DNA of 63,040 bases, filler included, from Octopus bimaculoides (lineage: Eukaryota): assembly GCF_001194135.2 (NCBI RefSeq). It is 7 parts of 6 records of this genome, joined end to end, with 100 filler letters (N's around TTAATTAATTAA, not from the genome) between each part and the next. Parts side by side here need not be neighbours in the genome. Positions count along the whole stretch, not along the records: positions 38,269 to 42,881 come from NC_068996.1; positions 42,982 to 58,010 come from NC_069002.1; 5 more parts are not named here. One strand, written 5' to 3'. Both the position numbers and the translations under genes were made by a program. The notes under the pieces were generated by a model. That model had not been told where the DNA came from. It worked only from the letters and a program-made list of their open reading frames with translations, and searched no databases. Positions 40,106 through 57,065 of this stretch are shown here, piece by piece. The number at the start of each line of letters is the position of its first letter. Within the stretch, counting starts at the first letter, position 1.

Positions 40106-40829
40106 GTTAGGTGTTAGAGAGTGAAACGTGTAATTTTTGCATTTGAACTAAGTCTTTTCCTCCGTTATTTAGCCCGTCTGTAACGCTTTCACGTTATTAG
40201 TTGAAGGGAAAGGCGTATATGCTTTGACATATTGTGCTGAAGATAACCAGGTGTTTTCATAACGCTAAATTTGAAATCGTTCGATATACTATTAATCTAA
40301 AGATCTTATTTATTTTTTCATCTGCCCGATTACAACCTGTGCTAATGGAATAGTGAGGTGATTTTTTTAGAACCATTTGGAATCTATCTCTACCGTGCGT
40401 CTGAACATATTCTTTTTAATGATATCTGTAGACAGCGCGAACACATATAGGCAGCTGTCTCTGCAGAGACGAAAGTCGAAACAACTGGACAACTTCTAAG
40501 GAGATATTTAAAACAATAAGTTGGTATTTTATTATCAGTTACTGACACTCTCAATTCTCCATTTCTCTCTTTCTCCCCCTCTCTCTCTCTCTCTCTCTCT
40601 CTCTCTCTCTCTCTCTCTCTCTCTCTCTCTCTCTCTCTCTCTCTCTCTCTCTCTCTCTCTCTCTCTCTCTCTCTCTGCAACCATATATATATATATATAT
40701 ATATATTAAAACAAGATGATATAATAGAAAGGTAATTAATAAATTATGATTTATTAATTAAAAATAAACAAACAGTTTCAGTTGCTATCCCTAAATGAGG
40801 TTTGTAACATTTAATTGTGCTTGTGTGTA

Positions 40830-41168
40830 TGTGACAATTAGTTGGTTGTCATAATAGAACTCAGAGTTTCGGATGCCGGGGCTGACGTCTGCTCCGGCAT
40901 CTCATCAGTTTTTAAGACAAAAACGCTATGAAAAAAAATCGTTGAATAAAGAGAAATTGCTTCAATAGGCATTGGGAAGGTAATACTTCCTTCATAGAAT
41001 CCACATATGCATACATATACACACACACATACACGTACATGCACACACATACACACACACATGTATGTATGTATATACATACTCACACACGCGTGTACAT
41101 ATACATACAAACACAGCCCTGGCATCCGAAACTCTGGGATTTATTATGACAACCAACAAATTGTCACA
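40830..41168. mobile_element. Inverted-repeat element (55-bp arms) carrying hammerhead sequence
   Basis: 40830-40884 TGTGACAATTAGTTGGTTGTCATAATAGAACTCAGAGTTTCGGATGCCGGGGCTG is inverted at 41114-41168. TA flanks both outer ends. Confidence 0.82.
40851..40914 (-). ncRNA. Type I hammerhead ribozyme motif
   Basis: Minus strand TAAAAA-CTGATGA-GATGCCGG(loop)CCGGCATC-C-GAA-ACTC t GAGT-T-CTATTAT. Perfect core, 8-bp helix II, near-palindromic helix III and GUU triplet. There is one extra C before G12 (or one G lost after A9), and helix I is imperfect in this copy. Confidence 0.75.
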
Positions 41169-41383
41169 TATTATAGTTATAGATAAATTCCTCTATTTTA
41201 CATAATATCGAGGTCTCATTCATTCTTTTGTTGTCATATTATTATTATAATTGATATATATATATATAGATATATGTCATATTATTATTAATATATATAT
41301 ATATATATATATATATATATATATATGTCATATCATTATCATTAATATATATATATATATATTAATATATATATATATAGTTA

Positions 41384-41472
41384 CGGCTGAAGATACCTTT
41401 ATACCATTCTGTCAATCAATTATATACCAATATAATGATGCAACGACTATAAAGCTTGAAACACGTGTACCG
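41384..41472 (+). ncRNA. Type I hammerhead motif with long helix II insert
   Basis: CGG-CTGAAGA-tacCTTTATA..44 nt..TATAAAGctt-GAA-ACACGTGT-A-CCG. Core intact, perfect 8-nt palindromic helix III, GUA triplet, 3-bp helix I. The base of helix II has mismatches. Confidence 0.62.
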
Positions 41473-42344
41473 CGGAATCCTTTGTGTTCTGTTTTTATTT
41501 TTACGCTTTTAATTTATTCTTTCACCCCGGACACTATCTGGCATATACAGGTGCTTGCAATTATCAAGTATTACCTCTAACATTTACTTTATATATATAT
41601 ATATATNNNNNNNNNNNNNNNNNNNNNNNNNNNNNNNNNNNNNNNNNNNNNNNNNNNNNNNNNNNNNNNNNNNNNNNNNNNNNNNNNNNNNNNNNNNNNN
41701 NNNNNNNNNNNNNNNNNNNNNNNNNNNNNNNNNNNNNNNNNNNNNNNNNNNNNNNNNNNNNNNNNNNNNNNNNNNNNNNNNNNNNNNNNNNNNNNNNNNN
41801 NNNNNNNNNNNNNNNNNNNNNNNNNNNNNNNNNNNNNNNNNNNNNNNNNNNNNNNNNNNNNNNNNNNNNNNNNNNNNNNNNNNNNNNNNNNNNNNNNNNN
41901 NNNNNNNNNNNNNNNNNNNNNNNNNNNNNNNNNNNNNNNNNNNNNNNNNNNNNNNNNNNNNNNNNNNNNNNNNNNNNNNNNNNNNNNNNNNNNNNNNNNN
42001 NNNNNNNNNNNNNNNNNNNNNNNNNNNNNNNNNNNNNNNNNNNNNNNNNNNNNNNNNNNNNNNNNNNNNNNNNNNNNNNNNNNNNNNNNNNNNNNNNNNN
42101 NNNNNNNNNNNNNNNNNNNNNNNNNNNNNNNNNNNNNNNNNNNNNNNNNNNNNNNNNNNNNNNNNNNNNNNNNNNNNNNNNNNNNNNNNNNNNNNNNATA
42201 TCAGGGTACAGGACGTTAGAACAATAAACTACAGACAACGGAACGAACATATAGGAAAACGGAAAGCCACTTGGAATATCTCTTCATCAGCTGTCTCTAT
42301 TCTATCTAGACGCTTCGAAGATAATATATATATATATATATATA

Positions 42345-42610
42345 GGTGCAGGAGTGGCTGTGTAGTAAGTGGTTTGCTTACGAACCACATGGTTCCGGGT
42401 TCAGTCCTACTGCGTGGCACCTTGGGCAAGTGTCTTCTGCTATAGCCTCGGGCCGACCAAAGCCTTGTGAATCGATTTGGAAGACGGAAACTGAAAGAAG
42501 CCCGTCGTATATATGTATATATATATGTGTGTGTGTGTGTAAATGTGTGCGTGTGTGTGTGTGTGTATGTGCATACATGTATGCATATATACGATGGCTT
42601 TCTGTCCAAT
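42345..42610 (+). mobile_element. SINE family B, 5' half
   Basis: GGTGCAGGAGTGGCTGTGT...GGTTCCGGGTTCAGTCC...GAAAGAAGCCCGTCGTATATATG. Confidence 0.85.
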
Positions 42611-54529: not shown

Positions 54530-54692
54530 CAGCAGATCGTTACCGCGGCAGACCACAATGCTTTGCGGCATTTTGTCTGTCTTTATGTTCTGAGTTCAAA
54601 TCCCGCTGAGGTCGACTTTGCTTTTTATCCTTTCGAAATCCTTAAAATAACTAACAGTTTGAACACTGGGGTCGATTTAATCGACTTATTCC
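54530..54692 (+). mobile_element. SINE family A, truncated by gap
   Basis: GTTCTGAGTTCAAATCCCGCTGAGGTCGACTTTGC...GGGGTCGATTTAATCGACTT. Confidence 0.7.
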
Positions 54693-56034
54693 NNNNNNNN
54701 NNNNNNNNNNNNNNNNNNNNNNNNNNNNNNNNNNNNNNNNNNNNNNNNNNNNNNNNNNNNNNNNNNNNNNNNNNNNNNNNNNNNNNNNNNNNNNNNNNNN
54801 NNNNNNNNNNNNNNNNNNNNNNNNNNNNNNNNNNNNNNNNNNNNNNNNNNNNNNNNNNNNNNNNNNNNNNNNNNNNNNNNNNNNNNNNNNNNNNNNNNNN
54901 NNNNNNNNNNNNNNNNNNNNNNNNNNNNNNNNNNNNNNNNNNNNNNNNNNNNNNNNNNNNNNNNNNNNNNNNNNNNNNNNNNNNNNNNNNNNNNNNNNNN
55001 NNNNNNNNNNNNNNNNNNNNNNNNNNNNNNNNNNNNNNNNNNNNNNNNNNNNNNNNNNNNNNNNNNNNNNNNNNNNNNNNNNNNNNNNNNNNNNNNNNNN
55101 NNNNNNNNNNNNNNNNNNNNNNNNNNNNNNNNNNNNNNNNNNNNNNNNNNNNNNNNNNNNNNNNNNNNNNNNNNNNNNNNNNNNNNNNNNNNNNNNNNNN
55201 NNNNNNNNNNNNNNNNNNNNNNNNNNNNNNNNNNNNNNNNNNNNNNNNNNNNNNNNNNNNNNNNNNNNNNNNNNNNNNNNNNNNNNNNNNNNNNNNNNNN
55301 NNNNNNNNNNNNNNNNNNNNNNNNNNNNNNNNNNNNNNNNNNNNNNNNNNNNNNNNNNNNNNNNNNNNNNNNNNNNNNNNNNNNNNNNNNNNNNNNNNNN
55401 NNNNNNNNNNNNNNNNNNNNNNNNNNNNNNNNNNNNNNNNNNNNNNNNNNNNNNNNNNNNNNNNNNNNNNNNNNNNNNNNNNNNNNNNNNNNNNNNNNNN
55501 NNNNNNNNNNNNNNNNNNNNNNNNNNNNNNNNNNNNNNNNNNNNNNNNNNNNNNNNNNNNNNNNNNNNNNNNNNNNNNNNNNNNNNNNNNNNNNNNNNNN
55601 NNNNNNNNNNNNNNNNNNNNNNNNNNNNNNNNNNNNNNNNNNNNNNNNNNNNNNNNNNNNNNNNNNNNNNNATATATATATATATATATACATACACTCA
55701 TACACACACACACACGTACACACACACACACACACACACACACACATAATTGAAGAGGAATGTAAGAATACATTACGAAGAATATATCATAAACGATTCA
55801 TAATTATTTACGAATATATCAATGGCCAAACATATAATCAAAAAATTAAAGAAGTGTGTATAATTATGAATAAATCACAATTATAACGGAGAGGGTTTCA
55901 AAAACGGTTACATGTCTAGAAATAGCAGTCAAACCCGCTATAAAGCTACTATAGCCACTCATATTTTATCTCTTCACAATAAAGCTGTCGGTGGGCGACA
56001 TGACATAAAATTGAAAACTTAAATAGAAGGTTAA

Positions 56035-56084
56035 TTCTCTATTGCAATTTCGAAGTTAAGAACCGTTTCCATACTTCTCTTAAT
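56035..56084 (-). ncRNA. Partial hammerhead motif in the left arm
   Basis: Minus strand AAGA-GAAG...CTTC-GAA-ATTGCAAT-A-GAGAA has an intact palindromic helix III and AUA triplet, but the 5' core reads ATTAAGA instead of CTGAAGA where arm homology ends. Confidence 0.65.
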
Positions 56085-56269
56085 TTTTCACTAATAACCG
56101 ATTTAACGCCGTGGCTCGATTTGCTCGACTTTTCTTATAAACGCTGTGCATGACGTTGAAACTCAGAATTTGAATGTGTAGGTAGATGTTGACGCATTAT
56201 TCTTGCCGGTCGGGACGCATGTAAGCCCCAAGGTATGTTTTTTTGTATTAATTTGTATCTACAGGAATG

Positions 56270-56330
56270 TTCTCCTGAAGAGAAGAGTGGAACCGCTTTT
56301 GGTTCCTAACTTCGAAATTGCAAAAGAGAA
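56270..56330 (+). ncRNA. Type I hammerhead ribozyme motif (U16.1>A in this copy)
   Basis: TTCTC-CTGAAGA-GAAG..GGAACC gctttt GGTTCC..CTTC-GAA-ATTGCAA[A]-A-GAGAA. Perfect 5-bp helix I (TTCTC/GAGAA), CUGANGA core, helix II GAAG/CTTC, GAAA, palindromic helix III. The inverted arm supplies the canonical U (ATTGCAAT-A). Confidence 0.78.
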
Positions 56331-57065
56331 TTAACCTTTTATTTAAGTTTTGAATTTTATGTCATGTCGCCCGCCAACAGTTTTATCGTGAAGAGATAAA
56401 ATATGAGTGGTTATAATGGCTTTATAGTGGTTTTGACTGCTATTTCTAGACGTGTAACGGTTTTTGCAACCCTCTCCGTTATAACTGCGATTTATTCATA
56501 ATTATGCACACTTCCTTTATATATATATATATNNNNNNNNNNNNNNNNNNNNNNNNNNNNNNNNNNNNNNNNNNNNNNNNNNNNNNNNNNNNNNNNNNNN
56601 NNNNNNNNNNNNNNNNNNNNNNNNNNNNNNNNNNNNNNNNNNNNNNNNNNNNNNNNNNNNNNNNNNNNNNNNNNNNNNNNNNNNNNNNNNNNNNNNNNNN
56701 NNNNNNNNNNNNNNNNNNNNNNNNNNNNNNNNNNNNNNNNNNNNNNNNNNNNNNNNNNNNNNNNNNNNNNNNNNNNNNNNNNNNNNNNNNNNNNNNNNNN
56801 NNNNNNNNNNNNNNNNNNNNNNNNNNNNNNNNNNNNNNNNNNNNNNNNNNNNNNNNNNNNNNNNNNNNNNNNNNNNNNNNNNNNNNNNNNNNNNNNNNNN
56901 NNNNNNNNNNNNNNNNNNNNNNNNNNNNNNNNNNNNNNNNNNNNNNNNNNNNNNNNNNNNNNNNNNNNNNNNNNNNNNNNNNNNNNNNNNNNNNNNNNNN
57001 NNNNNNNNTTTCGTTTCCGTTTTTTCTCTGCTTTCCTGATTATTATTATTACTATTATTATTTTG

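What the first reader, a model, noticed from the sequence alone, without database searches (positions are those of the whole stretch)
40440..56519. Hammerhead-ribozyme-rich tract: several unrelated type I hammerhead families with palindromic helix III
Seen: six loci carry the ordered motif helixI-CUGANGA-(extra nt)-helixII-GAAA-palindrome-UH-helixI: 40851-40914(-), 41384-41472(+), 44369-44405(+), 47855-47899(+), 50603-50666(-)/51254-51330(+) and 56270-56330(+). Helix I/II sequences differ between loci, so these are distinct families, yet helix III is always self-complementary (ACGT, AACGTT, ACACGTGT, ACACACGTGTGT, ATTGCAAT, ACTC-t-GAGT). Established: Penelope-like elements (PLEs) and retrozymes carry minimal type I hammerheads with palindromic helix III that cleave as dimers, and an extra nucleotide after A9 is tolerated (chrysanthemum chlorotic mottle viroid hammerhead). 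Inference: this genome hosts a diverse, probably poorly catalogued set of PLE/retrozyme-type ribozyme elements. I found no convincing motif in the first 40 kb by eye.
Basis: partly seen in the sequence, partly recalled or inferred. Interest (0 to 1): 0.85.

Follow-up and report, generated by a model that had tools for sequence, protein, structure and literature searches.

The report
Retroelement hammerheads, one with altered core
The stretch holds worn copies of several small hammerhead-shaped RNA motifs, likely the tail ends of Penelope-type jumping genes (a known kind), but one belongs to a very repetitive family whose copies share the same change in the catalytic centre, so it would probably cut slowly or not at all and has spread anyway.

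Summary
The motifs are real but overstated. All seven motif copies exist, and the tract beats shuffles (6 hits vs mean 0.07). None is intact: four have a core change (A6U, G12A, G5A, U16A) and three have damaged stems. Two quoted palindromes are composites of two copies. Three loci are outward-facing inverted pairs and several abut (TA)n. This matches published minimal hammerheads of Penelope-like elements (PLEs); an octopus PLE hammerhead is already listed (Craig 2021). No RT or endonuclease remnant was found. This scan reported the kind before in shark and rotifer DNA.

The new point is locus 44369-44405. In a DNA run 2,497 contigs map to it, and no other base reaches 2% at 44377. So U at position 6 is the family state, not decay. 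Two more unrelated loci have a pyrimidine there (3 vs shuffled mean 0.064; 0 of 500 shuffles). CUGANGA descriptors cannot see such cores, and I found none in print (two key papers unreadable). Most likely it is a slowed or dead ribozyme on a family that does not need cleavage. Activity is untested.

The parts
40848..40918 (-). Locus A: hammerhead motif, core intact, 8-bp helix II, ACUC-U-GAGU helix III, helix I partly broken
41114..41170 (+). Partial inverted copy of A (3' half only, 91% identical), pointing outward
41381..41475 (+). Locus B: core intact, palindromic helix III, mismatched helices I and II; the 210-bp insert has (TA)n on both sides
44369..44405 (+). Locus C: minimal hammerhead with U at position 6 (44377); 5-bp helix I, extra A after A9, G-C closed 4-bp helix II, ACGU helix III; predicted cut after 44400
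   Evidence: family-wide state
44357..44452 (+). 5'-truncated fragment of the repetitive family that carries C, starting right after (TA)n; related contigs continue upstream
47854..47899 (+). Locus D: minimal hammerhead with G12 changed to A (47887)
50604..50665 (-). Locus E1: G5 changed to A; left arm of an outward-facing inverted pair (50567-50706)
51255..51329 (+). Locus E2: core intact, helix II decayed; right arm of the pair, 66-69% identical to E1's arm
55845..56081 (-). F1: inverted copy (88%) of F2 and its 3' tail; has the intact palindrome and UA site but no first core half
56270..56330 (+). Locus F2: U16.1 changed to A (56324); tail runs to (TA)n at about 56520
40456..40491 (+). Extra hammerhead-like motif with C at position 6 (40464), 3-bp helix II; helix III and cut site irregular
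20847..20921 (-). Extra motif outside the tract with U at position 6 (20910), G-C closed helix II; 3' part decayed
52719..52780 (+). Probable decayed relative of C (U at position 6) with helix II to the cut site deleted; matched by eye plus 3'-tail similarity

Best explanation
These are worn hammerhead-shaped motifs from several unrelated repeat families, likely the truncated 3' pseudo-LTR ends of Penelope-like retrotransposons, whose parent RNAs would cut as dimers through the palindromic helix III; the local copies are probably dead, and the family at locus C shares U at core position 6 and is predicted to cut slowly or not at all. Shown: motif anatomy, inverted pairs, (TA)n neighbours, and family-wide U6. 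Inferred mechanism: PLE reverse transcription starts near the 3' end and often stops early, leaving solo or inverted ends in TA-rich targets. In tandem parent transcripts two motifs would pair through the palindrome to build helix III (from the literature, not tested here). For family C, a change at position 6 became fixed in a master copy that kept amplifying, because cleavage is dispensable for insertion while the region is still copied as part of the element's end.
For: Enrichment over shuffles. C and D fit the Cervera 2014 consensus: U-rich flank, extra base after A9, G10.1-C11.1, GAAA-N-N-UH. Four outward-facing inverted pairs in the window (A, E, F, and 26004-26350), as described for PLEs. 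B is bounded by (TA)n on both sides, and C, F and 20913 on one side; Hydra and Naiad PLEs prefer (TA)n. Family C: 2,497 contigs in run X1, differences of 2% or more only at 44400 (C to U, 20% of depth, still an allowed cut-site base), 44411 and 44412. Mutations in the CUGA turn give low activity (PMC9901934), and a natural A6C variant is slow (PMC3088659). In an Anolis PLE, catalytic hammerhead mutants did not affect insertion in vitro (PMC11167929).
Against: No RT or GIY-YIG remnant: 0 relevant Pfam hits in 48 reading frames and 0 HMMER hits for the one frame between E1 and E2 that was searched. No direct tandem pLTR pair in the window. D is not near (TA)n. Only family C was checked in reads, so the changes at D, E1 and F2 are assumed to be decay. 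Family C is homogeneous at nearly all positions, so youth alone explains its core conservation. Pyrimidine at position 6 recurs at two further unrelated loci, which plain loss of function does not predict.
Confidence: 0.7

Rival explanations
1. U/C at position 6 marks a lineage of functional variant hammerheads that still cleave in the dimer or with help from the element's protein, and are invisible to CUGANGA searches.
For: With one free core position, position 6 gave 3 variant loci (shuffled mean 0.064; 0 of 500 shuffles reach 3), while the other five positions gave 0. A loose-end consensus in run X1 shows a sister sequence with C at position 6. The only core polymorphism in family C is at position 17 and keeps the allowed H. 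Natural A6C has low but detectable activity. The Anolis PLE hammerhead cuts only with protein.
Against: The test was devised after seeing C, and numbers are small. It misses E1 and 58285, which are changed at position 5. The 40461 and 20913 motifs have irregular 3' halves. The far part of the loose-end consensus rests on few of its 12 contigs. Saturation mutagenesis found no rescue for CUGA-turn changes.
Confidence: 0.2
2. The loci are fragments of non-LTR retrozymes (tandem non-coding units that make circular RNAs) rather than PLE ends.
For: No coding sequence nearby. A 2026 preprint derives retrozymes from PLE pLTRs (abstract and methods).
Against: No locus is repeated in direct tandem in the window. 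Inverted outward pairs and short helix I without a closing loop are PLE traits.
Confidence: 0.07
3. Several loci are chance matches read generously in AT-rich repeat DNA.
For: No Rfam support. Folding z-scores for B, C, E1 and E2 are unremarkable. The descriptor was written after seeing the loci.
Against: 0 of 200 shuffles reach the observed count in either version, and the reversed tract gives 0. The motifs sit inside inverted repeats found independently by BLAST. Chance is plausible only for single weak hits such as 50864.
Confidence: 0.03

Closest known systems
Minimal hammerheads (min-HHR) in pseudo-LTRs of metazoan Penelope-like elements (Cervera and De la Pena 2014, PMC4209133)
   Same: Type I layout, short helix I, extra base after A9, G10.1-C11.1, palindromic ACGU helix III, mostly solo copies, opposite-strand pairs 100-700 bp apart
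   Different: All alignment rows I saw (supplement part 2 of 3) have A6; the reported core variant is U3-A8. Family C has U6. No linked ORF shown here.
Hydra-clade PLE hammerheads, including Hydra-1_oBim of Octopus bimaculoides (Craig et al. 2021, PMC8557442, File S2)
   Same: 3-4 bp palindromic helix III with an odd centre (like locus A), a U after A9 and before GAAA (like locus B), (TA)n insertion preference
   Different: Different helix sequences, so different families. All listed cores have A6. Four window motifs searched in that supplement gave 0 exact matches (line breaks could hide one).
Natural A6C hammerhead of phage Bcep176 (Perreault et al. 2011, PMC3088659)
   Same: Natural substitution at core position 6
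   Different: A single phage motif with C6 and low measured activity; here U6 is shared across a large eukaryotic repeat family and activity is unknown.
Poseidon PLE hammerhead of Anolis (PMC11167929)
   Same: PLE hammerhead whose cleavage is not needed for insertion in vitro; offers the mechanism for spread of a crippled core
   Different: Canonical core that cleaves with protein help

Membership tests
Hammerhead ribozyme (canonical core) | C3 U4 G5 A6 N7 G8 A9, G12 A13 A14, A15.1-U16.1, H17 | tested here: not met
   Met in 3 of 7 copies (A, B, E2); one change each in C, D, E1, F2. For C the change is family-wide.
Hammerhead ribozyme (canonical core) | Helices I and II flanking the core | tested here: inconclusive
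   Clean in C, D, F2; damaged in A, B, E1, E2
Hammerhead ribozyme (canonical core) | Self-cleavage after position 17 | not testable with these tools
   Only assembled contigs were available; they cannot show RNA ends
Rfam hammerhead families | Covariance-model match | tested here: not met
   No match at C, D or E at E-value up to 10; A, B and F were covered only by the whole-window scan
PLE min-HHR | Extra base after A9, G10.1-C11.1, palindromic helix III | tested here: met
   All three in C and D; palindrome in A and B, one mismatch in E1; F2 has G-C and a palindrome broken at U16
PLE min-HHR | Stem covariation within families | tested here: inconclusive
   Family C shows no stem variant at 2% or more; other families not sampled
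Penelope-like element | RT plus GIY-YIG ORF upstream of the motif | tested here: inconclusive
   None found, but truncated solo ends are expected to lack it
Penelope-like element | Inverted 5'-truncated copy or tandem pseudo-LTRs | tested here: met
   Inverted outward pairs at A, E, F and 26004-26350; no direct tandems
Penelope-like element | Insertion into (TA)n (some clades) | tested here: inconclusive
   B, C, F and 20913 abut (TA)n; A, E and the 26 kb pair lie 61-115 bases from one; D does not; 14% of the window lies within 60 bases of (TA)n
Non-LTR retrozyme | Head-to-tail units, each with a type I hammerhead | tested here: not met
   No direct repeat of any locus in the self-comparison; genome-wide not testable

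The most novel reading that the evidence does not exclude
This genome carries a large, overlooked lineage of Penelope-type hammerheads with a pyrimidine at core position 6 that still cleave (as dimers or protein-assisted); all CUGANGA-based surveys are blind to them, so ribozyme counts in such animals are underestimated and the CUGA turn is less fixed than thought.
Probability: 0.2. Interest if true: 0.65.

Novelty: new variant of a known kind. Interest (0 to 1): 0.4.

Why it matters
The tract as such is ordinary for a PLE-rich animal genome. Family C matters because the role of PLE hammerheads is an open question (PMC7761336 calls it a mystery; Craig 2021 suggests they may be passengers). A young, very repetitive family that shares a change at a normally essential base is a natural experiment. 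If it does not cut, cleavage is dispensable for massive spread in vivo. If it cuts, the core tolerates a change thought crippling, and standard searches miss a whole class.

Tried and rejected
No whole genome is held, so family consensus building was impossible except for C through contigs.

An 18-base motif of D gave 0 viral loci and 23 metagenome loci; none of the 23 resembles D beyond the motif, so they are chance. C patterns gave 0 in genome contigs and 0 in viral contigs.

No RNA holder is listed for C. Runs guessed to be RNA hold it, but may be DNA, so nothing follows on expression.

The idea that U6 locks the RNA off by pairing the two core strands was rejected: in folding calculations the open-core form is as rare with A at that place (0.002) as with U (0.009).

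A by-eye GIY-YIG likeness in the E interior was not supported. Motif 42290(-) has only a first core half. The 50864 hit has only A-U stems and folds no better than shuffles, so it was set aside. One contig from a further organism (run X23) lists no change at 44377, but only 2 of its 5 differences are itemised, so it is not counted as proof of cross-species U6.

Lunse 2017 and Arkhipova 2017 were not available; either could already list position-6 variants.
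Full report
Setting. The window is microsatellite-rich animal DNA with 5,916 N and many short interspersed repeats. I read it as octopus-like from recalled repeat types; no call names the organism, and no whole genome is held.

Observation. Three have an intact core but damaged stems (A, B, E2). Four have one core change: C A6U (44377), D G12A (47887), E1 G5A (50658), F2 U16A (56324). 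Two quoted palindromes are composites of two copies. A descriptor built on published features, but written after seeing the loci, found 5 hits scoring 18 or more in 40400-56600 against none in 200 block shuffles and none in the reversed tract. A looser version found 6 against mean 0.07, maximum 2; it recovers 5 of the 7 copies plus one A-U-only hit. The first 40 kb has 1 hit at that score (12 of 200 shuffles reach it) and 3 at 14 or more (3 of 200), so the tract is denser but not unique. Rfam does not detect C, D or E.

Context. A, E and F are outward-facing inverted pairs of 91%, 66-69% and 88% identity, and a fourth (76%) lies at 26004-26350. B has (TA)n on both sides; C, F and the 20913 motif abut it on one side; D does not. 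No locus is repeated in direct tandem. Pfam on 48 frames with stops read as X gave only two weak unrelated hits and no RT or GIY-YIG. A HMMER search with one frame between E1 and E2 gave 0 hits. PLE membership therefore rests on the motif and arrangement, not on a gene.

Literature. Cervera and De la Pena 2014 (PMC4209133; parts 1-2 of 4 of the text and supplement part 2 read) define min-HHRs with these features, mostly as solo remnants, some on opposite strands 100-700 bp apart, inactive as monomers and weak as dimers. Craig 2021 (PMC8557442; passages and supplement parts) describes inverted truncated copies and (TA)n targets, and lists a hammerhead for an Octopus bimaculoides Hydra element of another family. 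So the general finding is known, and this scan met it before in shark and rotifer DNA.

Locus C. Of 24 listed runs, 20 hold all five sampled words of the 91-base stretch, including four with only 3-5 million letters (9 rows may be the source sample). In DNA run X1, itself possibly the source, 2,497 contigs were laid at 80% likeness or better, with summed depth of about 1.0-1.3 million over the motif. Only three places differ in 2% or more: 44400 (C to T, 20%), 44411 (14%) and 44412 (9%). Run X20 (124 contigs) shows the same three. U6 is thus the state of this family; lineages more than 20% diverged would not have been laid. Individual contigs have depths of about 4-100, which suggests tens of thousands of copies. 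The tool warns that summed depth is no copy number, so this is a rough inference. The one core polymorphism, at position 17, stays within the allowed bases. Because most positions are invariant, youth explains the conservation as well as selection does.

Position 6 elsewhere. With one core position freed, a G-C closed helix II and exact GAAA, position 6 gave 3 variant loci (40461 C; 44374 U; 20913 minus U) against shuffled mean 0.064, with 0 of 500 shuffles reaching 3; the other five positions gave 0. The test is post hoc and misses two G5-changed motifs. A loose-end consensus in X1 shows a sister sequence with C6, and a decayed relative with U6 lies at 52724 (by eye).

Mechanism. CUGA-turn mutants have low activity and no second-site rescue except the C3-G8 swap (PMC9901934, passages). 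A natural A6C phage variant cleaves at under 0.1 per minute (PMC3088659, passages). In the Anolis Poseidon PLE the hammerhead cuts only with protein, and catalytic mutants insert normally in vitro (PMC11167929, passages). The most likely reading is a slowed or dead ribozyme carried by a family that spreads without needing cleavage. The bolder reading, a functional Y6 lineage, is not excluded. A U6-specific misfolding lock was tested and rejected.

Novelty. Ten library searches showed no report of a U6 PLE hammerhead; most hits were seen only as listings. Published descriptors fix A6, so such a family would have been missed. Lunse 2017 and Arkhipova 2017 could not be read, one Cervera supplement file was not searchable, and bioRxiv supplements are closed; any of these may bear on this. 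Other papers seen: PMC6765202, PMC7761336, PMC6155905 and PMC11014351 (passages); PMC13282606 (first third); preprint 10.64898/2026.07.22.740005 (first fifth and a term search).

Verdict. Observation partly confirmed; interpretation partly supported. Known kind overall, with one apparently undescribed core variant shared across a large family. Interest 0.4.

Noticed in passing
window 26004-26136(-) and 26226-26350(+): A further outward-facing inverted pair (76%) with a decayed hammerhead of the U-after-A9 type; the palindrome and GAAA are better kept in the minus copy
   Followed up: partly
window 58277-58367(+): Hammerhead-like motif with G5 changed to C, long helix II and a perfect 8-base palindrome; folds better than all 200 shuffles
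   Followed up: partly
window 34414-34779(+): Open frame whose end looks like the first part of a monocarboxylate-transporter-type gene (recalled motif; no Pfam hit); the tract may lie in its intron
   Followed up: partly
window 58995-59279(+): Probable exon with a weak PKD-domain match (E 0.006)
   Followed up: partly
window 42345-42507, 45386-45821, 47217-47383, 51519-51704, 52989-53133, 54527-54692: Two abundant SINE-like families with many copies across the window
   Followed up: no
window 47980-48400(-): Degenerate coding-like stretch with a cysteine cluster downstream of locus D; no Pfam hit
   Followed up: partly
window 42198-42330(-): First core half next to a gap and (TA)n, sharing an 11-base stretch with the 40456 motif region; no second half found
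   Followed up: partly
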